DNA from: Candidatus Thorarchaeota archaeon
Lineage (GTDB): Archaea; Asgardarchaeota; Heimdallarchaeia; Hodarchaeales; Hodarchaeaceae
Direction of reading: 5' to 3'
DNA: 6,798 bases
Assembly (NCBI GenBank): GCA_048882505.1
Contig: JBHLRO010000055.1
Span: 1-6,798 of the forward strand
The first letter of the stretch is position 1, and every line of letters begins with the position of its first letter. A program made the translations under genes and the position numbers. This document shows, piece after piece, positions 1-6,798 of the stretch. The notes beneath the pieces were generated by a model. The model was not told where the DNA came from. It made no database searches and saw nothing but the letters and a program-made list of their open reading frames with translations.

Positions 1-173
1 AGGCGTTTCAGGACAACCACCAAGTTTTCGACCTGTTCTTTACTGAGGTTTCCCCCGAAGACACTATATTGAAATCGTTCAAGACCAAAATCCTCTAGGA
101 CGCCAATGATCTTCGTACGAAGACGAGTATGGTCTTGTGGGACGTCATAAACCACGATTTGTTTGTAGTCCAC
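1..173 (-). CDS. cas2: CRISPR-associated endoribonuclease Cas2 (5' part; truncated by window edge)
   Basis: Not in the ORF track; translated by hand from GTG at 173: (M)DYKQIVVYDVPQDHTRLRTKIIGVLEDFGLERFQYSVFGGNLSKEQVENLVVVLKR... It has the Cas2 hallmarks VVYD (catalytic Asp) and R-x-Q-Y-S-V-F. It starts 7 nt after the cas1 stop, with a GGTGA Shine-Dalgarno-like element at 185-181. Confidence 0.95.
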   Translation of the reverse strand, partial: MDYKQIVVYDVPQDHTRLRTKIIGVLEDFGLERFQYSVFGGNLSKEQVENLVVVLKR

Positions 174-180
174 GAACTCG

Positions 181-1227
181 TCACCAGGAATAATGGAATG
201 GAGAGTAGGAGGAGGTTCTCCCCAGGAGGTAATGGATCACTTTCCGAGCTTGCAGAAGGATGATCTGGTCAAGACGATACTGTTTACCATCGAATTGAAG
301 TCGGGTTTCGAAACGTTCATCTAGTTTGGTAAAGAGTTTACTCTTCCCTAACTTGCTCAGAAGATGTTTACCATTATCTACGGTAAAATCATCGGTGATA
401 TTGAATTGCCTGGAAATCGCGAGATCAAAGACCGCTCTGTCGACGATAGGTTGACGAAATTCCTCGGCCAGATCGATAGCGAGGGAGGGGCGGCCTGAAC
501 GGTCCACATGGAGGTAACCCCCGTAAGGATCGAGTCCGGTAGCAACAGCTTGGATGAGGGTTCGAGAGTTGAGGATGACGTATCCGTAGCTGAGGGCGGC
601 GTTAAGGGGGTCACGAGGTGGGTGTTTTTGGCGTCCTTGGAATTCAAATTTGGGGTCGAGCATAGAAACGATCGCCTGATAATAGAGATGGGTGCCTTGT
701 CCTTCAATGCCCATCAAGTTGGTTCGGACGGTTTCCAGATCTCCGTCTATCTCGGTGGCGCGTTGGGCGAGGAGTCGTATCTCGGTAGCCGCCTCTGTGA
801 GGGATTGGGCAACTGCGGGATTTGAAGTGGTACGATTTTTTGCGTAAGAAAGGAGGAGGTTGGCCTTGGTTTGGAGGGGGCCGTGGACAAATGCCTTGGC
901 AAGGGTGACCCCACGGAGATCGGTAAACGCGACGAATTGCTCGCGTCGAGTCCGAACCGTGCCATGAGCATGGAATGGGTGGGTGATCCCAACCACCTTG
1001 TGTCTGTCCAAGATGACAATGGGGATGCAGTGAGAGAGTAACAGAACCCGTGCGGGATTGGTAATGTGGACATGGGATTCACACACTACCCCCGTAAGAT
1101 TAATTACTGGGATTTTTTGGGTTGTTTTGACTTCGTTACCTTCTTCGTCGTATTTGCTCTGAACCACAAGGGTTCGGGAGGACTTACTTACTGAGATGCC
1201 GTACGAGAGTAACATAAGAGTGGACAT
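181..1227 (-). CDS. cas1: CRISPR-associated endonuclease/integrase Cas1
   Basis: Cas1 motifs: LMGIEG (E190 in ORF-track numbering), FQGRQKHPPRDPLNAALSYGY, GLDPYGGYLH (H255) and PSLAIDLAEEFRQPIVDR (D267/E270); the catalytic set looks intact. The start is placed at ATG 1227 (MSTLMLL..., 348 aa) rather than 1272. GGTGAGG (1243-1237) precedes it, and this start removes the overlap with the upstream gene. Confidence 0.97.
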   Translation of the reverse strand: MSTLMLLSYGISVSKSSRTLVVQSKYDEEGNEVKTTQKIPVINLTGVVCESHVHITNPARVLLLSHCIPIVILDRHKVVGITHPFHAHGTVRTRREQFVAFTDLRGVTLAKAFVHGPLQTKANLLLSYAKNRTTSNPAVAQSLTEAATEIRLLAQRATEIDGDLETVRTNLMGIEGQGTHLYYQAIVSMLDPKFEFQGRQKHPPRDPLNAALSYGYVILNSRTLIQAVATGLDPYGGYLHVDRSGRPSLAIDLAEEFRQPIVDRAVFDLAISRQFNITDDFTVDNGKHLLSKLGKSKLFTKLDERFETRLQFDGKQYRLDQIILLQARKVIHYLLGRTSSYSPFHYSW

Positions 1228-1231
1228 GGGC

Positions 1232-2170
1232 TCATTCCTCACCTTGGTAATATACTCGGCCCTGGAGGTCACGTAAATTGATCCAAAAAGTCTGTGACGA
1301 TGACTTCAGGAGCACCAATTCGCCTCGCGCTAGCATGACCTCGCCTGCAACTACCATGGGATAACGTGTAATTGGACAATTCATGAGAGGGATTTTTTCA
1401 GAGAATTGGGGAGCGAGGATGTCCCAATAGTCCTGTGTTAGTATAACGTGATCCAACAGAACGAGTTCAGGAAACACTTTGTGGATGTGTAAACCGATGT
1501 CTTGAAAATTAAAGACGGAAGGGGCAGAATGAGGGGCATGTATGAGGGCCTGAAGCTTGTCTTCGAAGCCCATTATTGTGGAAACCTTGAAATGGCGAGC
1601 CAATTCTTGCTCCAATTGCTGGGCCCAAGCGAGGGAGAGTGGTGTCAATCCCTCGAACACCAGGACTTCATCAAAGCCTTGGTCCATGATTCGTGACAAG
1701 TAACCTTGGGGAGCATCGCCCAAATATCTTCGGGTGATACCTACTTTGGAGTATATTCCAAGACGTCCCCAATAAATCACATATTCCGCTTGGCAGTACC
1801 GTTGGCAGAATGACTCGTCTCCGCATTGCGGGTGGTCGTGTGGATCACATGGTGTACCAAAGGGGTGGCCTGCCTGGGTGAAGAGACAACTTAATTGCAA
1901 ATTAAAAGGTTCTCCTTGGCAGGAGGTACACCATCCCGTCCAGTTGGTCTCCTCAGAGGGCGTAAGGCAAGTGGTACAATAGCGCTGTTCAGAGAACAAG
2001 AAGTGTCTATACCCAAAAAAGGGGGTAAACCACAGTGTTTCATCTCGTTTGATGCGAAGATATGGGATTAGTAACCCATTCCAATAATGGTATTGGAACC
2101 CAGTCATAACCCATGGTCCACACCACTGGGAGGTCACGAATGGTAAAATTTTCTCGCTTTCCACGAACAT
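1232..2170 (-). CDS. DUF2797-family protein; Cys-rich putative metal-binding N-half plus GIY-YIG-like putative nuclease core
   Basis: 312 aa. It has CxxC (65/68), CxxC (81/84) and further Cys at 95, 108, 116, 122 and 126. These are followed by YVIY...KVGITR...SRIMDQG...LEQEL and a C-terminal GEVMLARGELVLL...NLRDLQGR. This matches my recollection of the DUF2797 signature (VYLA...KVGxTR...RWxDQGA...E; GxLxGxKGxYL...NxRxxxG). GGGAGAG lies just upstream of ATG 2170; M22 (2107) is an alternative start. Confidence 0.8.
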   Translation of the reverse strand: MFVESEKILPFVTSQWCGPWVMTGFQYHYWNGLLIPYLRIKRDETLWFTPFFGYRHFLFSEQRYCTTCLTPSEETNWTGWCTSCQGEPFNLQLSCLFTQAGHPFGTPCDPHDHPQCGDESFCQRYCQAEYVIYWGRLGIYSKVGITRRYLGDAPQGYLSRIMDQGFDEVLVFEGLTPLSLAWAQQLEQELARHFKVSTIMGFEDKLQALIHAPHSAPSVFNFQDIGLHIHKVFPELVLLDHVILTQDYWDILAPQFSEKIPLMNCPITRYPMVVAGEVMLARGELVLLKSSSQTFWINLRDLQGRVYYQGEE

Positions 2171-2257
2171 ATTTGTAGCTCTCCCTGATAGATTGGGCGA
2201 TATTGACTACTGTCGGTTTAGTTCAAGCAATAAAAATATTTAATAATGTTACGGTAT

Positions 2258-2280
2258 TATATTTCCGAAATTGAAATATA
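2258..2280. repeat. Perfect 8-bp inverted repeat TATATTTC-N7-GAAATATA, candidate operator or hairpin upstream of the cas operon
   Basis: Read directly: tatatttc (2258-2265), cgaaatt, gaaatata (2273-2280). It lies in the AT-rich region about 90-110 nt upstream of the DUF2797 start. Confidence 0.45.
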
Positions 2281-2433
2281 TCGTTGACCATTTCTCCTAA
2301 CACGAATTCTTGAATGACTCCTCAACCGGCCTTTAAATTAACTATCAAGACAATATTTACCTGAAAAACGGAAACCAAGCAAGATTTAGATCTTATACCC
2401 TAAAAAATGATTTAGTTGAAGAGTAACTACAAT

Positions 2434-2604
2434 TCAAATTCGTAAAAGCCAATACCCAGTGATCGCGAAGAGTACCAAAACGATGACGGTACCTTTTGTA
2501 AGCAATTGGAACACTACTTCTATGTTTAAAGTGCAGTTTAGCCAATAAGTGCTATTTACAGAAAATGCCGCTTGAAGGAGTATCAGACTGGAGGCCTGAA
2601 TCAT
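2434..2604 (-). CDS. Possible small membrane protein (one C-terminal hydrophobic helix)
   Basis: The ORF track gives 2434..2694 (86 aa). The C-terminus VVFQLLTKGTVIVLVLFAITGYWLLRI is hydrophobic. The N-terminal 30 codons cross a GC-rich hairpin region, so ATG 2604 (56 aa) seems the more plausible start. No family recognised. Confidence 0.3.
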   Translation of the reverse strand: MIQASSLILLQAAFSVNSTYWLNCTLNIEVVFQLLTKGTVIVLVLFAITGYWLLRI

Positions 2605-2689
2605 GTCGGGTTGCCCGCCAGGCTGGCCTAAAAGGCAAAAAGTAGGAGAATGACGCTCCCACCCTACGGATTCTAGTTCGGTATTTATG

Positions 2690-2705
2690 AACAAAAGTTT
2701 ATAAG
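2690..2705 (+). promoter_or_regulatory. Archaeal promoter (A-rich BRE + TATA box TTTATAAG) for the RHH/protease module, probably near-leaderless
   Basis: AACAAAAG is followed by TTTATAAG (2698-2705), ending 28 nt before ATG 2734. No Shine-Dalgarno is visible before 2734. Confidence 0.6.
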
Positions 2706-2733
2706 GTCTTTCGTACTGGTAAATTAGATTCTC

Positions 2734-3123
2734 ATGGTTATAGTAAAAGGAACCATTCCCGAGGAGCTAGATCAAAAGTTTCGAAAAATGGTTGCCAAAC
2801 GATATGGATTACGAAAGGGAGCCATTTCAAGCGCTCTTGAGGAAGCTGTAAGGGATTGGGTCGAGAATATTTATCGATCCAAATCTCATCAGCAACTTAG
2901 GACTGGTAACAGTTTTAGGGATGAACTTATTGACAAATATCCAAATAAATACGTTATAATTGACGAAAAAGAAGTCTTGACTGTTGCTGATTCTGTCGTC
3001 GAAGCCACTCAAGAAGTCCGAAGAAAATATCCTGAAAGGGACAAATTTACATTAATTCATGCCGTTCCAAAGACGTATTCTAGAAGACAATTAGGATGGC
3101 GGATACGGAGAAGAAACCAATGA
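2734..3123 (+). CDS. Ribbon-helix-helix (CopG/MetJ-like) DNA-binding domain fused to a DUF5678-like domain
   Basis: The N-terminus MVIVKGTIPEELDQKFRKMVAKRYGLRKGAISSALEEAVRDWVE has the strand-helix-helix pattern of archaeal RHH proteins. The C-half LIDKYPNKYVIIDEKEVLTVADSVVEATQEVRRKYPE resembles DUF5678 (kYxgkyVai...vv..g.s..e). Confidence 0.7.
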   Translation: MVIVKGTIPEELDQKFRKMVAKRYGLRKGAISSALEEAVRDWVENIYRSKSHQQLRTGNSFRDELIDKYPNKYVIIDEKEVLTVADSVVEATQEVRRKYPERDKFTLIHAVPKTYSRRQLGWRIRRRNQ

Positions 3124-3533
3124 TCTGTTGGGAGTTTACTCCTTCCGAATATAGAACTCCACTCTATCAGATGGAGTTAGGTTTATTTGTCACAGCGAAG
3201 GGTGAATGGGTCTCTCCCGCAATACCATTTATCGTGGATACAGGATTTGATGGGGATATTCTTCTGGAAGAAGCCATTTTCGAATCTCTAGGCTTTTCAA
3301 GGTTTGAAGAAGATTCAAAAGACTGGGATTTAGGAGAAACAATTGATGGGGATCATTTAATCTTACGAGCAAGTCATACTGTCGTACAATTAGAGAAAAT
3401 AGAGTTTAAAGTTAGAATCGAAACTTTTCCTGATAATCAGGAGAATCTTGTCGGGAGGGGATTGTTAAACCAAATGATTTCGCAAATCAACGGATTTAAT
3501 AAGGAGTTCTGTTGTTCAACGACGCAACAGTAA
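3120..3533 (+). CDS. Retropepsin-like clan AA aspartic protease (AF_0612-like single-domain type)
   Basis: Catalytic motif FIVDTGFDG and C-terminal LVGRGLLN (the retropepsin hydrophobic-G-R motif). The start is placed at ATG 3120, which overlaps the upstream TGA as ATGA (137 aa); the ORF track starts at 3096. Confidence 0.85.
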   Translation: MICWEFTPSEYRTPLYQMELGLFVTAKGEWVSPAIPFIVDTGFDGDILLEEAIFESLGFSRFEEDSKDWDLGETIDGDHLILRASHTVVQLEKIEFKVRIETFPDNQENLVGRGLLNQMISQINGFNKEFCCSTTQQ

Positions 3534-3774: not shown

Positions 3775-5502
3775 ATGGTCGTTACGGTAGATGCTATGGT
3801 TCACATCAGGCAAATCCCATTAGTACGTGACCCGCAGAGTAAAAAGTATCGCCCGAGGTTTCTAACCTCTGGGGACGAAACGCGGTTGGCTTATTGCATT
3901 GCCGATTTTGAATCCCGAATCCAAGCAGGCGAAAAAGATCTTGAAAAAGAAATCGTTCTTGACAATTTTGATGATTGGAAGCTGGGAATGTGCATTTATG
4001 AGGTTCTTTCGAAGTGGTATCCTTACACTCGTCCTACGGGAGACCAACTGGGGATTATGAGCCAAAATCGATTGAAGCTGTGGGAAGTGGTCAATACCAA
4101 TTATAATGGAGCAATTTTGGATCAACAGGAACGGAAAGCGGTGTTTGCCCAGGCCCAGGCATTAAATGAAGCGAAACAAAATAATACAAGCTCAAATATT
4201 AATACTTTCTTCTTCGGGGACTATTTCTACCTCCGTAGACGCATTGTACCAGCAACGACTCCCCAACCTAGAGACTTGTGTAACGGGGTTAATCTACTCA
4301 TCATTAAGACGCTTTTTCGATATGCACAGCAAGTTAAGATTCTTATCCCAAAGGAGGTACCCTCACCATTAAGTTCCAAGCAGGTGAAAACCCTGTTCTA
4401 TTTATCAAAACGTTTTGGGGTTTTTTCGAGCATCAAGAAACTTAATGGCGGTGGGTTGGTTGTAGAAATCACGGGTCCGGTCGAACTGATTGGCCGAAAA
4501 GAGAAGTACGGGAGAAAGATCCACTGGCTCTTCGAACAGCTCCTCAAGTCATGGAAATTTAGCCAGGATGACTGGACGATAACGATTCAAGTGATATGGG
4601 GAAAAGGGATCCGTTTAATCCATTTTCGAATTTCCCATATTATTTCGACACTCGTCAGCGGAAATGATCCAGGAGAGGCTGCACGCGGGATGGATTTTGA
4701 TTCAAACCTGGAGAAACAATTCTATGACATCCTTACCAGCATTTCCCCCTGGGAAATCGAACGTGAGCCCATGATTATCTTGGAGGATGAGATTTTCCTT
4801 CCAGATTTCGCGTTAAGATATCGTAACCTTCCACCCATTTACCTTGAAGTGGCAGGATTCTGGACCGAAGATTATAAAACGAAAAAAATCGACAAATTGA
4901 CAAAATTGGCCCAATCCTCTCTGAACCTTATTGTAATTGCGGATACCAATTTGGAATTCTCGAAGGAATCGTTTCCTTTTCCCATTCTTGAATATGCCCG
5001 ATCGAAGCTCCGTCCGATTCGAAATTATCTATCGCGATTACTGCAACAAACCTATCTTGAGCCATATCATGCCAAACGTATTAGAGAAATCTGGAAGACG
5101 TTCCCTGGTGAAATTGAGGCATGCCTTCAGAAATCTGAATTTGGTGGAGTCATAGCAAGAATGGATCTAGTGAGCAGGCTCGGTCTTGCTGACGTGGAGA
5201 AGATTCACGACTTATTTACGGCCGATCGCACTCGTTCTTACCTTTCAAAACGGAACTGGCAATATATTTCCTTGGTTGGATTAATAAAAACGGAATTGCT
5301 CACATTCTGGAGCCAAAAAATTCGGATACGCTTTCAGAATCGATCCCGCCTGAAAATAGACGTGATTAGGCAGTGTTTCCCTTCGGACCTTCCGAAAGGG
5401 ATGATTCCCCCGATCCTTGAACATTTAGGATATAAGATAAAAATGATCGATCTTGCTACCCAATATGTGGTCAACACACCAGCTCGGAAACGCACGGGCT
5501 AA
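3775..5502 (+). CDS. bax1: Bax1 / DUF790-family PD-(D/E)XK structure-specific endonuclease (XPB partner)
   Basis: Nuclease signature FDSNLEKQF (4696-4722)...WEIEREP...FLPDF (PDF at 4801)...YLEVAGFWTEDYKTKKIDKL, plus the central YGRKIHWLF motif and an N-terminal YRPRF motif typical of DUF790. It is directly adjacent to an XPB-like helicase. The start could be M8 (3796). Confidence 0.9.
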   Translation: MVVTVDAMVHIRQIPLVRDPQSKKYRPRFLTSGDETRLAYCIADFESRIQAGEKDLEKEIVLDNFDDWKLGMCIYEVLSKWYPYTRPTGDQLGIMSQNRLKLWEVVNTNYNGAILDQQERKAVFAQAQALNEAKQNNTSSNINTFFFGDYFYLRRRIVPATTPQPRDLCNGVNLLIIKTLFRYAQQVKILIPKEVPSPLSSKQVKTLFYLSKRFGVFSSIKKLNGGGLVVEITGPVELIGRKEKYGRKIHWLFEQLLKSWKFSQDDWTITIQVIWGKGIRLIHFRISHIISTLVSGNDPGEAARGMDFDSNLEKQFYDILTSISPWEIEREPMIILEDEIFLPDFALRYRNLPPIYLEVAGFWTEDYKTKKIDKLTKLAQSSLNLIVIADTNLEFSKESFPFPILEYARSKLRPIRNYLSRLLQQTYLEPYHAKRIREIWKTFPGEIEACLQKSEFGGVIARMDLVSRLGLADVEKIHDLFTADRTRSYLSKRNWQYISLVGLIKTELLTFWSQKIRIRFQNRSRLKIDVIRQCFPSDLPKGMIPPILEHLGYKIKMIDLATQYVVNTPARKRTG

Positions 5503-6798
5503 ATGAGAGGTGGTGCTCTCATAGGACGGAAAACTTTCAATCGTGGTAAGTCTCAGGAATCACCCGTATTAATAGGCTTTCGCGGGGACGATCTCGTTCT
5601 ATCGAATCTATCCAAGGTACCTCCCGATATGAGAGGACTTCCCCACACATCTGAGCGGGATTTTTTCCGTTTTCTCCCATGCGATTTTTCGATTATACTT
5701 CAGCGGCTAAAGCAGGCTGGATATGACGTAGAGCTCGGGTTTTTCTGTGATTTCGCGTTGACTTTCCCTTTAACACCAACTTTTCGGCTCCGTAATTACC
5801 AGGAACAGGCAATAAGCCATTGGAAAACCCAAGGAGAGGGCCGAGGAACAGTAATCCTCCCCACAGGGGGAGGAAAGACAATCATTGGGCTGGCCGCAAT
5901 CCATTTGCTGAACGTGAGGACATTAGTGATCGTTCCAACTTTAGACCTTGTAGATCAATGGATTTCCAGATTTACATGGTTTGAAGAGTTTTCCTCGGAT
6001 TCTCGTGCGGATACAATTGGACAATATGGAGGCGGGTCTCAGATTCTTCGTGCATTGACTGTGTCCACATATGAGAGCGCACGCCTCTATTCTAAACGGT
6101 TACGAAACGAATTTGGTCTCTTGATTTTCGATGAAGTCCATCATTTAAGCGGAGAAAGATGGTCAGACATCGCCCGCGCCTATATTGCGCCTTATCGATT
6201 GGGACTGACGGCAACCTTATCAAAACAGGACATAGGATACGAACCAGTTGTTAAGTACGTGGGCCCTATCGTGTTTTCAATGGCTCCCTCCGAGCTAAAG
6301 GAAAGAGGGGCCATTGCATCTTACCAGATTAAGAAGATCCTGGTCGATCTCGACTCCGACCAACAAGCCGAATACGATGGTCAGGTGAAAATTTATCGAA
6401 ATTACATGCGACAAAAAAACTTGTACGGGAAAAAAGGGTACCAGCAACTCTTATACCGCTATCGTGAGCCCAAAGCACGTCAGGCCCTACAAGCACATCG
6501 CCTGGCCCGTAAAATCGCATTCAACGCACCAGGAAAGCTCCAGGCAATACATGACATTTTTCAGAACCATCCTGAAGAAAAAATCCTCCTTTTTTGTGAG
6601 TCTATTCCATTTGTAGAAGAAATCTCCATGCATTTTTTGATTCCCGCAATTTCGTCTAATCTGTCCTCGCAAGAAAGACAGCGAGTCCTAGAATTATTCA
6701 GTCACGGGAAGATTCGAGTTTTAGCAGCGGGAAGAGTCCTCGACGAAGGCTTGGATGTAGCGGATGCATCCATCGGGATAATAATCTCAGGTAGTGCC
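5503..6798 (+). CDS. xpb: XPB/Rad25-type superfamily 2 DNA helicase (truncated by window edge)
   Basis: Not in the ORF track. An open frame of 432 codons runs from ATG 5503 to the edge. It contains a Q motif LRNYQEQA, Walker A LPTGGGKT (5857-5880), Ia VIVPTLDLVDQW, Ib TVSTYESA, Walker B IFDEVHH (DEVH 6130-6141), III RLGLTAT, IV KILLFCE and V VLDEGLDV. It has a short N-terminal DRD-like region and a ThM-like helical insert, as in archaeal XPB. Confidence 0.92.
   Translation, partial: MRGGALIGRKTFNRGKSQESPVLIGFRGDDLVLSNLSKVPPDMRGLPHTSERDFFRFLPCDFSIILQRLKQAGYDVELGFFCDFALTFPLTPTFRLRNYQEQAISHWKTQGEGRGTVILPTGGGKTIIGLAAIHLLNVRTLVIVPTLDLVDQWISRFTWFEEFSSDSRADTIGQYGGGSQILRALTVSTYESARLYSKRLRNEFGLLIFDEVHHLSGERWSDIARAYIAPYRLGLTATLSKQDIGYEPVVKYVGPIVFSMAPSELKERGAIASYQIKKILVDLDSDQQAEYDGQVKIYRNYMRQKNLYGKKGYQQLLYRYREPKARQALQAHRLARKIAFNAPGKLQAIHDIFQNHPEEKILLFCESIPFVEEISMHFLIPAISSNLSSQERQRVLELFSHGKIRVLAAGRVLDEGLDVADASIGIIISGSA

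What the first reader, a model, noticed from the sequence alone, without database searches (positions are those of the whole stretch)
1..2170. Uncharacterised Cys-rich, GIY-YIG-like DUF2797 protein heads a cas1-cas2 adaptation operon: candidate Cas4 substitute
Seen in sequence: the three genes share a strand. Only 4 nt separate the DUF2797 stop (1232) from cas1 ATG (1227), and 7 nt separate cas1 from cas2. The cas1 ribosome-binding site GGTGAGG lies inside the last codons of DUF2797, which suggests co-transcription and translational coupling. The protein has nine clustered Cys (two CxxC pairs) and Y-x-x-Y...K-V-G-I-T...R...E, the pattern of GIY-YIG/T5orf172-like nucleases. Established: Cas4 (Fe-S RecB-like nuclease), DnaQ-like exonucleases, Csn2 and reverse transcriptases are the known Cas1-Cas2 ancillary factors; I do not know DUF2797 as a cas-associated gene. 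Inference: this could be a new metal-cluster nuclease that generates or trims prespacers or selects PAMs.
Basis: partly seen in the sequence, partly recalled or inferred. Interest (0 to 1): 0.8.

Follow-up and report, generated by a model that had tools for sequence, protein, structure and literature searches.

The report
GIY-YIG-like protein heading cas1-cas2-cas4 operons
In many Asgard archaea a divergent DUF2797 protein, with zinc-binding cysteines and a GIY-YIG-type nuclease core, is the first gene of the cas1-cas2-cas4 operon; it is probably an undescribed helper of CRISPR spacer uptake that works alongside Cas4 and does not replace it.

Summary
Window 1232-2170 (-) encodes a 312-aa protein ("X") that lies 4 nt upstream of cas1. 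cas2 starts 7 nt after cas1 and is cut by the contig end. X has nine clustered Cys and the Y133/K142/R160/E187 pattern.

X is a divergent DUF2797 member: Pfam gives 23.1 bits (cut-off 25), and the model matches an AlphaFold DUF2797 cluster at TM 0.80. Its core (residues 127-250) has GIY-YIG topology, and the best solved-structure matches are Slx1, HIGLE, I-TevI and UvrC (Z 4.1-5.6).

The cas linkage recurs. In 400 Asgard genomes, all 40 assessable X genes sit beside a cas1 homologue, across 13 families. All nine metagenomic relatives I looked up head the same operon. X tracks one Cas1 lineage, next to type I-B effectors and long CRISPR arrays. Canonical DUF2797 paralogues form a separate, non-cas clade.

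"Cas4 substitute" fails: cas4 follows cas2 wherever DNA extends far enough, including in a same-genus relative. The gene order matches Sulfolobus csa1-cas1-cas2-cas4, so X most likely acts as a second prespacer-processing nuclease. This role is inferred.

One lineage carries a longer X homologue without the catalytic residues. I found no paper or Cas/defence profile covering the family; one relevant paper could not be read.

The parts
1232..2170 (-). Gene X: 312-aa cas1-linked DUF2797-family protein (stop codon included), first gene of the adaptation operon
   Evidence: ORF and translation. Pfam DUF2797 at 23.1 bits, below the cut-off. AF2 model with pLDDT 88.8. Homologues head cas1-cas2-cas4 operons.
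1979..2113 (-). X residues 20-64: N-terminal four-stranded beta domain
   Evidence: Strands 20-30, 33-42, 45-50 and 53-64 in the model. This region is also kept in the long f20 homologues.
1793..1978 (-). X residues 65-126: zinc-ribbon-like CxxC...CxxC (C65, C68, C81, C84) plus a second four-Cys cluster (C95, C108, C116, C126; C122 is not conserved)
   Evidence: The first four Cys are invariant and the second four are at least 90% conserved in 34 relatives. Site table. The bound metal was not determined.
1421..1792 (-). X residues 127-250: GIY-YIG-like core in the order beta1(Y133)-beta2(K142,G144)-alpha1(R160,Q164)-beta3-alpha2(E187)
   Evidence: Secondary structure and invariant columns. The best solved-structure matches are Slx1 Z 5.6/5.3, HIGLE 5.2, I-TevI 4.7 and UvrC 4.1. 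AFDB clusters named 'GIY-YIG nuclease family' (E 3e-7) and MUG113 (E 6e-6) also match.
1235..1363 (-). X residues 270-312: C-terminal small beta barrel with invariant G276 and G283 and the N-L..L-G-R motif
   Evidence: Weak resemblance to CarD/Mfd RID-type barrels only.
1237..1243 (-). GGTGAGG Shine-Dalgarno-like motif for cas1, inside the last codons of X
   Evidence: Read directly from the sequence; 9 nt before the ATG at 1227.
181..1227 (-). cas1 (348 aa), with the catalytic residues conserved
   Evidence: PF01867 at 232 bits and TIGR00287 at 224 bits. E175, H240, D252 and E255 are invariant in 27 X-linked Cas1 proteins. It belongs to the X-linked Cas1 lineage.
3..173 (-). cas2, first 57 codons only (cut by the contig end)
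   Evidence: PF09827 at 41 bits. It is 67-71% identical to Cas2 of L002/L003.
2171..2733 (.). AT-rich intergenic region (GC 37-38%) between X and the divergent RHH gene: presumed promoter region. GGGAG lies at 2185-2181, 10 nt before the X ATG, and an A/T-rich TATA-like stretch lies near 2241-2228
   Evidence: There is no CRISPR array here. The promoter assignment is inference only.

Best explanation
X is the founding copy in this window of a distinct, cas1-linked branch of the DUF2797 superfamily. It is an accessory component of a particular lineage of Asgard-archaeal type I-B adaptation modules with the gene order X-cas1-cas2-cas4, often followed by a small winged-helix-like gene. It is co-transcribed and probably translationally coupled with cas1.

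It has four parts: an N-terminal beta domain, a zinc ribbon plus a second four-Cys site, a GIY-YIG-type nuclease core, and a C-terminal beta barrel. It works together with Cas4, not instead of it.

The most likely mechanism is inferred. X docks on the Cas1-Cas2 integrase and acts as a second endonuclease that cuts the prespacer end or flank that Cas4 does not process (the PAM-distal side). This would help set spacer length and orientation, as the second Cas4-family nuclease Csa1 does in the Sulfolobus csa1-cas1-cas2-cas4 operon.

Shown here: linkage, co-inheritance with one Cas1 lineage, fold, and conserved catalytic-type residues. Inferred: catalysis, substrate, physical complex and metal content.
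For: 1. Linkage in genomes. Of 41 full-length homologues in 400 genomes of the phylum, 36 lie directly upstream of cas1 on the same strand. Four lie beside a divergently oriented cas1 homologue, with cas2 and cas4 downstream of X. One lies at a contig end. They come from 13 families and 22 genera.

2. Linkage in metagenomes. All nine metagenomic representatives from the cas-side clade that I looked up head the same operon. For P0019 the contig ends inside cas1.

3. Trees. X-linked Cas1 proteins cluster apart from the Cas1 proteins of canonical cas3-cas4-cas1-cas2 loci, which form a clade with support 100. The shallow groupings of the X tree and the Cas1 tree agree.

4. Genuine CRISPR context. 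The neighbouring effectors are type I-B: Cas8b, Cas7/Csh2 or Cst2, Cas5, Cas3 and Cas6. Arrays with 37-nt repeats follow the operon, about 90 units in L003.

5. Fold. The model has pLDDT 88.8 and GIY-YIG topology. The four best of 48,161 solved chains are GIY-YIG nucleases.

6. Conserved residues. Y133, K142, G144, R160, Q164 and E187 are invariant down to 20-25% identity.

7. Co-folding with Cas1 gave weak support only: score 0.36, best of 3 controls 0.00. That mark was reached by 58 of 80 solved complexes and 2 of 110 mismatched pairs. At 0.60 or under it was reached by only 7 of those 80 and by both mismatches that passed. The runs agree in at least 75% of contacts and the partner pLDDT is at least 78. 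My own alignments were used, so these counts hold only roughly.

8. Precedent. Two nucleases, Cas4 and Csa1, set PAM, the 3' motif, spacer length and orientation in S. islandicus (bioRxiv 10.1101/486738). The csa1-cas1-cas2-cas4 cluster is described in PMC4333418.
Against: 1. There is no biochemical or expression evidence.

2. The GIY-YIG assignment rests on structure prediction with modest Z scores (at most 5.6). A profile-profile comparison with 19 classical GIY-YIG domains was negative (probability 1.3%), and no Pfam nuclease family is hit.

3. The same Tyr/Lys/Arg/Glu set is conserved in the non-cas housekeeping DUF2797 paralogues. The chemistry is therefore ancestral and its substrate is unknown. 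Those paralogues neighbour an RNase E/G-like gene or a radical-SAM gene.

4. In family f20 the cas1-linked homologue is longer (430-566 aa). It keeps the N-terminal domain, zinc ribbon, fold topology and C-terminal barrel, but the four catalytic positions align with hydrophobic or Gly residues. Catalysis is therefore not universally needed for the cas1-linked role.

5. A small Cas1 sub-clade (L096, L099, L100) has cas1-cas2-cas4 or cas1-cas4 without X.

6. In this assembly no cas4, effector genes or array are assembled, so the local system cannot be shown to be complete.
Confidence: 0.6

Rival explanations
1. X is a non-catalytic structural or recruiting subunit of the adaptation complex. It would use its zinc ribbon and beta domains to bind DNA, Cas1-Cas2 or the leader, much as Csn2 or IHF assist integration. 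The GIY-YIG-like core would serve only as a scaffold or ligand-binding module.
For: The long f20 homologues keep the N-terminal domain, zinc ribbon and C-terminal barrel but lose the Tyr/Lys/Arg/Glu set, and they remain directly upstream of cas1 in all 11 assessable loci. There is no sequence-level match to active GIY-YIG families. Co-folding with Cas1 gave weak support only (0.36 against a best control of 0.00, with the caveats given under the best explanation).
Against: Y133, K142, R160, Q164 and E187 are strictly invariant in the short form down to about 20% identity, which is hard to explain without catalysis or specific ligand binding. The f20 operons carry an extra gene with a weak RMMBL hit after cas4 that could supply a lost activity.
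Confidence: 0.2
2. X generates prespacers upstream of Cas1-Cas2. It would be an endonuclease that fragments invading or branched DNA to feed the integrase, playing the role of RecBCD/AddAB or Cas3 products, and would not trim ends on the complex.
For: The best structural matches are structure-specific or nicking GIY-YIG endonucleases: Slx1, HIGLE and UvrC. X sits in a separate operon from the effector genes and cas3.
Against: Tight coupling to cas1 (4-nt gap, SD motif inside X) and co-inheritance with one Cas1 lineage fit a stoichiometric partner better than a free nuclease. There is no helicase or translocase domain. Nothing here separates this reading from the trimming reading.
Confidence: 0.1
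3. X replaces Cas4: a metal-cluster nuclease doing PAM-end processing in a cas4-less module.
For: No cas4 is found in this assembly. X is Cys-rich, as Cas4 is.
Against: The contig ends inside cas2, so the cas4 position is simply not assembled. cas4 follows cas2 in about 30 related operons, including the same-genus relative. No X module with enough downstream DNA lacks cas4.
Confidence: 0.03
4. X is a passenger: a selfish GIY-YIG homing-type gene, or a housekeeping DUF2797 enzyme that merely happens to lie next to cas1.
For: GIY-YIG domains are common in mobile homing endonucleases (general knowledge). Canonical DUF2797 paralogues are housekeeping-like and unrelated to CRISPR.
Against: X has a fixed position and orientation in 36 of 40 loci across 13 families, its tree agrees with the Cas1 tree at shallow levels, and it forms a clade separate from the housekeeping paralogues. 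It is found only beside cas1 homologues.
Confidence: 0.04

Closest known systems
Csa1, the second Cas4-family nuclease of the Sulfolobales type I-A adaptation operon csa1-cas1-cas2-cas4 (also Cas4-2 of Pyrococcus furiosus, recalled from memory)
   Same: Same slot and operon grammar: a Cys-rich predicted nuclease gene directly upstream of cas1, with cas2 and cas4 downstream, sometimes beside a small winged-helix regulator-like gene. In S. islandicus both nucleases are needed to set PAM, the 3' motif, spacer length and orientation (10.1101/486738; PMC4333418).
   Different: The fold and family are unrelated. Csa1 and Cas4 are PD-(D/E)xK/RecB-like, while X is DUF2797 with a GIY-YIG-like core and has no PF01930 or PF12705 hit. 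The host system is Asgard type I-B, not crenarchaeal I-A. The function of X is untested.
Canonical DUF2797 (PF10977) proteins, including the housekeeping Asgard paralogues
   Same: Same overall architecture and the same invariant C4 ribbon, Y, K-x-G, R-x3-Q-G, E and C-terminal G...G motifs. The model matches a DUF2797 AFDB cluster at TM 0.80 and an ESM Atlas DUF2797 cluster at TM 0.70.
   Different: The canonical paralogues score 60-64 bits over the full profile, against 23 bits over half of it for X. They form a separate clade with support 95. They occur in genomes without any cas1 and sit next to an RNase E/G-like or radical-SAM gene. In Flavobacteria the family is linked to a GH3 gene (PMC9425974). 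The C95/C108 cysteines are largely specific to the cas-linked branch.
GIY-YIG nucleases (Slx1, HIGLE, I-TevI catalytic domain, UvrC N-terminal domain)
   Same: Same beta-beta-alpha-beta-alpha core, with Tyr on beta1, Arg on alpha1 and Glu on alpha2. These are the top structural matches at Z 4.1-5.6. Slx1 also combines the nuclease with a zinc-binding domain. From memory, Hpy188I has Lys in place of the second Tyr, as X does.
   Different: There is no detectable sequence relationship. The second Tyr is Lys, as in the T5orf172/MUG113-like branch. X has extra N- and C-terminal beta domains and eight Cys. Activity is unknown.
Cas4 (PF01930), the Fe-S PD-(D/E)xK adaptation nuclease
   Same: A Cys-rich accessory factor encoded in the adaptation operon.
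   Different: It co-occurs with X in the same operons and has a different fold and family. X is not a Cas4 and does not replace it.

Membership tests
DUF2797 (Pfam PF10977) | Score at or above Pfam's gathering cut-off (25 bits) over the profile | tested here: not met
   P0001 scores 23.1 bits, E 7.6e-5, over profile positions 6-108 of 227 only. However, 33 of 34 aligned relatives hit the family at E <= 0.01, and precomputed hits exist for P0004 and P0005.
DUF2797 (Pfam PF10977) | Shared fold and architecture with bona fide members | tested here: met
   Foldseek against AFDB clusters: a DUF2797 protein at E 5e-24, TM 0.80/0.84 over residues 3-305, plus eight further DUF2797 clusters. ESM Atlas DUF2797 cluster at TM 0.70.
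DUF2797 (Pfam PF10977) | Conserved motifs shared with canonical members (C4 ribbon; Y; K-x-G; R-x3-Q-G; E; C-terminal G...G) | tested here: met
   All are present in 23 cas-linked and 8 canonical Asgard sequences.
GIY-YIG nuclease superfamily | beta-beta-alpha-beta-alpha core fold | tested here: met
   Model elements E130-137, E140-147, H157-164, E168-174 and H180-194. Of 48,161 chains, ranks 1-4 and 6 are GIY-YIG nucleases: Slx1 Z 5.6 (rmsd 3.8, 85 aligned residues), Slx1 5.3, HIGLE 5.2, I-TevI 4.7, UvrC 4.1. The Z values are modest.
GIY-YIG nuclease superfamily | Catalytic residues: Tyr of 'GIY' on beta1, Tyr (or Lys) of 'YIG' on beta2, Arg on alpha1, metal-binding Glu on alpha2 | tested here: inconclusive
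   Y133, K142, R160 and E187 are invariant and lie on the expected elements. Residue-by-residue superposition on a solved nuclease could not be done because the tools give no coordinates. The conserved Asn of classical members was not identified.
GIY-YIG nuclease superfamily | Sequence-profile similarity to PF01541, T5orf172 or MUG113 | tested here: not met
   There is no such Pfam hit at E <= 0.1 for P0001 or at E <= 0.01 for 34 relatives. hhalign against 19 Asgard GIY-YIG domains gave probability 1.3%. Only structure-level matches exist, to AFDB clusters named GIY-YIG (E 3e-7) and MUG113 (E 6e-6).
GIY-YIG nuclease superfamily | Metal-dependent nuclease activity | not testable with these tools
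   Needs biochemistry.
Cas4 / Csa1 (PF01930, PD-(D/E)xK with Fe-S cluster) | PD-(D/E)xK fold and a Cas_Cas4 profile match | tested here: not met
   There is no PF01930 or PF12705 hit in X or its relatives, while the true Cas4 proteins of the same operons score well. The fold is different.
Cas (CRISPR-associated) accessory gene, in the operational sense | Recurrent, lineage-spanning genomic association with core cas genes and CRISPR arrays, with low occurrence elsewhere | tested here: met
   All 40 assessable genome copies and all nine metagenomic representatives looked up lie beside cas1. Arrays and type I-B effectors are adjacent. The cas-side clade is separate from the non-cas paralogues.
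Cas (CRISPR-associated) accessory gene, in the operational sense | Demonstrated effect on adaptation | not testable with these tools
   Needs an acquisition assay.

The most novel reading that the evidence does not exclude
X founds a new Cas protein family: a zinc/cysteine-rich GIY-YIG endonuclease that is an integral subunit of an Asgard type I-B Cas1-Cas2-Cas4 adaptation complex. It would process the PAM-distal prespacer end and so set spacer length and orientation. This would be a non-homologous replacement of the second Cas4-type nuclease (Csa1/Cas4-2) and the first GIY-YIG enzyme implicated in CRISPR adaptation. In one lineage it would have decayed into a pseudo-nuclease scaffold.
Probability: 0.4. 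Interest if true: 0.72.

Novelty: new variant of a known kind. Interest (0 to 1): 0.62.

Why it matters
How the non-PAM end of a prespacer is processed in Cas4-containing systems is only partly understood. Known helpers are Cas4 paralogues or host exonucleases. A GIY-YIG-type protein tied to one Cas1 lineage across many Asgard families would add a new enzyme class to the adaptation toolkit. It also gives a defined four-gene cassette (X-cas1-cas2-cas4) that can be reconstituted in vitro or in a heterologous host.

The finding gives the first functional context for one branch of the uncharacterised DUF2797 family. The pair of a catalytically intact short form and a residue-depleted long form is a natural experiment on whether the nuclease chemistry or the scaffold matters.

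The family is rare (59 clusters at 50% identity among 1.8 billion representatives). Every member I could place is Asgard, and the named ones are Heimdallarchaeota. The practical impact is therefore that of a specialist finding.

Tried and rejected
- Foldseek of the whole model against the PDB found nothing at E <= 0.001. The multidomain model needed the exhaustive aligner.
- A profile search of PDB sequences returned only zinc-ribbon noise such as RecR and S14, with E >= 0.07.
- hhalign of the family against 19 classical GIY-YIG domains gave probability 1.3%. Only the Glu helix aligned, and not significantly.
- PADLOC-DB, which includes Cas1 and other defence profiles, gave no hit for short or long X.
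- NCBIfam gave no hit for X.
- Searches of the own genome for the missing parts found no Cas4, no Cas7/DevR/RAMP, no match to I-B effectors of relatives and no CRISPR array. Only a Cas6 fragment was found, at the edge of contig C60. The assembly is 94.6% complete in 83 contigs, so this is non-assembly and not absence.
- There is no array or meaningful repeat in the window.
- Literature: no paper links DUF2797 or PF10977 to CRISPR, and searches combining GIY-YIG with cas1/cas4 or Asgard were irrelevant. The CRISPRicity preprint mentions neither GIY nor Zn-ribbon. The most relevant paper (Makarova et al. 2020, CRISPR J, on Asgard CRISPR systems; PMC7307682) is not held. From memory, its abstract mentions 'additional nucleases', so prior mention of this gene cannot be excluded.
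- I considered whether the neighbouring Bax1-XPB pair is functionally tied to the operon. I rejected this because it is not seen next to X in other loci.


Full report
**1. What is in the window.**
The window is a whole 6,798-bp contig, C55 of a 4.3-Mb assembly in 83 contigs that is 94.6% complete. Three genes lie head to tail on the minus strand.
- X runs from ATG 2170 to TGA 1234-1232 (312 aa).
- cas1 runs from ATG 1227 to TGA 183-181 (348 aa).
- cas2 starts at GTG 173 and runs off the contig at base 3.
- Cas1 and Cas2 are unambiguous: PF01867 at 232 bits and PF09827 at 41 bits.
- Upstream of X is a 560-bp AT-rich spacer and a divergently transcribed gene, so X is the first gene of the operon.
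- The nine clustered Cys and the Y133, K142-V-G, R160, E187 pattern are present.

The organism is an Asgard archaeon. Earlier notes of this scan say so. The genome encodes an ESCRT-II EAP30 protein above the Pfam cut-off, which none of 14 control genomes does. Relatives of X are deposited as Candidatus Heimdallarchaeota.

**2. What X is.**
- *Family.* Pfam gives DUF2797 just below its cut-off: 23.1 against 25 bits, over half of the profile. An exhaustive phmmer search of 1.8 billion representatives finds only 59 relatives. Of 34 aligned relatives, 33 hit DUF2797.
- *Conserved residues.* C65, C68, C81, C84, Y133, K142, G144, R160, Q164, E187, G276 and G283 are invariant. C95, C108, C116 and C126 are at least 90% conserved.
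- *Model.* The AlphaFold2 model is confident (pLDDT 88.8, pTM 0.85). It has four parts: an N-terminal beta domain (residues 20-64), a Cys-rich ribbon region (65-126), a beta-beta-alpha-beta-alpha core (127-250), and a C-terminal beta barrel (270-312). The invariant Tyr lies on beta1, Lys-x-Gly on beta2, Arg-x3-Gln on alpha1 and Glu on alpha2.
- *Structural matches.* The whole model matches AFDB DUF2797 clusters (E 5e-24, TM 0.80), and clusters named GIY-YIG nuclease and MUG113. An exhaustive structural comparison with 48,161 solved chains puts GIY-YIG nucleases at ranks 1-4 and 6: Slx1 Z 5.6 and 5.3, HIGLE 5.2, I-TevI 4.7, UvrC 4.1.
- *Limits.* The Z scores are modest. Foldseek against the PDB, a PDB sequence-profile search and an hhalign against 19 classical GIY-YIG domains (probability 1.3%) were all negative. 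The GIY-YIG assignment therefore holds at the level of fold and motif, not of sequence family.

**3. Is the cas linkage recurrent? Yes.**
- *Genomes.* A profile search of 400 genomes of the phylum returns two tiers. The strong tier has 41 full-length places at E < 1e-40, in 13 families and 22 genera. Crossing them with a Cas1 census of the same genomes and with tblastn on the fetched loci gives this split: 36 directly upstream of cas1 on the same strand; 4 (one genus) in an X-unknown-cas2-cas4 string beside a divergent cas1 homologue; and 1 at a contig end.
- *Metagenomes.* All nine metagenomic representatives from across the cas-side of the family tree show X-cas1(-cas2-cas4).
- *CRISPR context.* The neighbouring effector genes are type I-B: Cas8b/TM1802-Csh1, Cas7/Csh2 or Cst2, Cas5, Cas3 and Cas6. 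Long arrays with 37-nt repeats and 36-39-nt spacers follow the operon in L003 (about 90 units) and L005.
- *Share of Cas1 genes.* About 135 near-full-length Cas1 genes were found, and 40 carry short X.

**4. The non-cas paralogues.**
The weak tier (E 1e-14 to 1e-26) is the canonical DUF2797. It scores 60-64 bits over the full Pfam profile. It is nearly universal in several Asgard families, including genomes with no cas1 at all. Its start overlaps the end of an RNase E/G-like gene in one lineage and of a radical-SAM gene in another.

In a maximum-likelihood tree the eight canonical paralogues form one clade (SH-aLRT 95). All 25 known cas-linked sequences and the phmmer representatives lie on the other side. 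P0053 groups with the canonical side and is not cas-linked. Both branches keep the same Tyr/Lys/Arg/Glu and C4 sets. The chemistry is therefore ancestral, and the cas-linked branch is a recruited paralogue.

**5. Co-inheritance with one Cas1 lineage.**
Cas1 proteins from canonical Asgard I-B loci (cas8-cas7-cas5-cas3-cas4-cas1-cas2; cas4 confirmed) form a separate clade with support 100. They are only 25-30% identical to the window's Cas1. X-linked Cas1 proteins cluster together, with one small X-less sub-clade. Shallow groupings of the X tree and the Cas1 tree coincide. X evolves faster than Cas1: identity to L001, L003, L005 and L007 is 45/71, 37/67, 33/53 and 28/42% for X/Cas1.

**6.
The 'Cas4 substitute' reading fails. 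cas4 (PF01930) follows cas2 in every related operon with enough DNA, about 30 loci. This includes G069/L014, a member of the same genus. In the window the contig stops inside cas2. The assembly also lacks effector genes and arrays, so the local absence is an assembly gap.

The order X-cas1-cas2-cas4 is that of the Sulfolobales csa1-cas1-cas2-cas4 cluster (PMC4333418). Other first readers of this scan raised the same idea on other genomes. In S. islandicus, Cas4 and Csa1 together set PAM, the 3' motif, spacer length and orientation (bioRxiv 10.1101/486738). The best-supported mechanism is therefore that X is a second, non-homologous prespacer-processing nuclease acting with Cas1-Cas2-Cas4.

Co-folding of X with Cas1 gave only weak support: score 0.36, best of three controls 0.00. 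The mark was reached by 58 of 80 solved complexes and 2 of 110 mismatched pairs. At 0.60 or under it was reached by only 7 of those 80 and by both mismatches that passed. The runs agree in at least 75% of contacts and the partner pLDDT is at least 78. My own alignments were used, so the counts hold only roughly.

**7. A complication.**
In family f20 the gene upstream of cas1-cas2-cas4 is a longer homologue of 430-566 aa, found in 11 assessable loci. Profile-profile comparison with the short family gives probability 98.3%. Its model keeps the N-terminal domain, ribbon, beta-beta-alpha-beta-alpha topology and C-terminal barrel, with added helices. However, Y133, K142, R160 and E187 align with Gly/Leu, Ile, Met and Leu. 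These operons carry an extra gene with a weak RMMBL hit after cas4. So either nuclease chemistry is dispensable for the cas1-linked role (the scaffold rival), or it has been handed to another enzyme there.

**8. Novelty.**
- Source databases call these proteins hypothetical or DUF2797.
- PADLOC-DB and NCBIfam have no model that hits them.
- No held paper links DUF2797 or PF10977 to CRISPR.
- The 2020 CRISPR Journal survey of Asgard CRISPR systems could not be read. From memory, its abstract mentions 'additional nucleases', so priority is uncertain.
- First-stage readers of this scan flagged the same operon in at least five other genomes.

I rate this a new variant of a known kind: an adaptation module with an extra accessory nuclease of a new fold class.

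**9. Confidence.**
- X is a genuine, functionally linked component of these adaptation modules: about 0.85.
- X is an active nuclease that processes prespacers: about 0.45-0.5.
- X is a Cas4 substitute: below 0.05.

Noticed in passing
L094:7070-8770 (-), L098:6963-8261 (-), L101, L103-L108, L110: In Asgard family f20 the gene directly upstream of cas1-cas2-cas4 is a longer X homologue (430-566 aa; hhalign probability 98.3% to the short family). It keeps the N-terminal domain, zinc ribbon, core topology and C-terminal barrel, but the four GIY-YIG-type catalytic positions are replaced. It may be a pseudo-nuclease.
   Followed up: partly
L094:3529-4680 (-), L098:3572-4744 (-): In the same f20 operons a 383-390-aa gene with a weak RMMBL hit (metallo-beta-lactamase RNA-specificity domain; E 2e-4 and 4e-3) follows cas4, before cas8b. 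It could be a further nuclease associated with adaptation.
   Followed up: no
L049:1-9300, L051:300-4300, L052: Variant in one genus. X is followed by an unknown 305-946-aa protein (the 946-aa one has a faint Cas1-like segment), then a Cas2 with a C-terminal extension, then Cas4. A diverged cas1 homologue that matches only Pfam positions 43-277 is transcribed divergently. This may be one of the unusual Asgard CRISPR-derived systems.
   Followed up: partly
L001:3181-3618, L003:9526-9939, L005:13042-13419, L112:4098-4457: A conserved small gene (119-145 aa, no Pfam family) follows cas4 in many X operons. A language-model look-alike search points to MarR/winged-helix proteins (score 0.92, a lead only). 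This recalls the Csa3a regulator beside the Sulfolobus adaptation genes. It lies beyond the end of this window.
   Followed up: partly
L055:3659-6024, L057:4038-6012: The housekeeping Asgard DUF2797 paralogue overlaps or abuts the end of an RNase E/G-like gene in one lineage and of a radical-SAM gene in another. These conserved pairings might hint at the ancestral substrate of the family.
   Followed up: no
window 2734-3533 (+): An overlapping gene pair: a 129-aa RHH plus DUF5678 protein (2734-3123) and a 145-aa clan-AA aspartic-protease-like protein (3096-3533; TIGR03698 E 7e-10, below its cut-off). It resembles a toxin-antitoxin-like or regulator-protease module, divergent from the cas operon.
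   Followed up: no
window 3775-6798 (+): Bax1-type nuclease (DUF790, 575 aa, longer than the archaeal Bax1 models) directly followed, with abutting stop and start (5502/5503), by an XPB/Rad25-type helicase that is cut by the contig end. This archaeal repair pair is not found next to X in other loci.
   Followed up: partly
G000 contig C60:1-765 (-): This is the only other CRISPR-related piece in the assembly: a Cas6 fragment at a contig edge, 48% identical to the Cas6 upstream of X in L003. The CRISPR-Cas locus of this MAG is fragmented, and only 2 of the 21 other genomes sampled from its genus have any cas1 match.
   Followed up: partly
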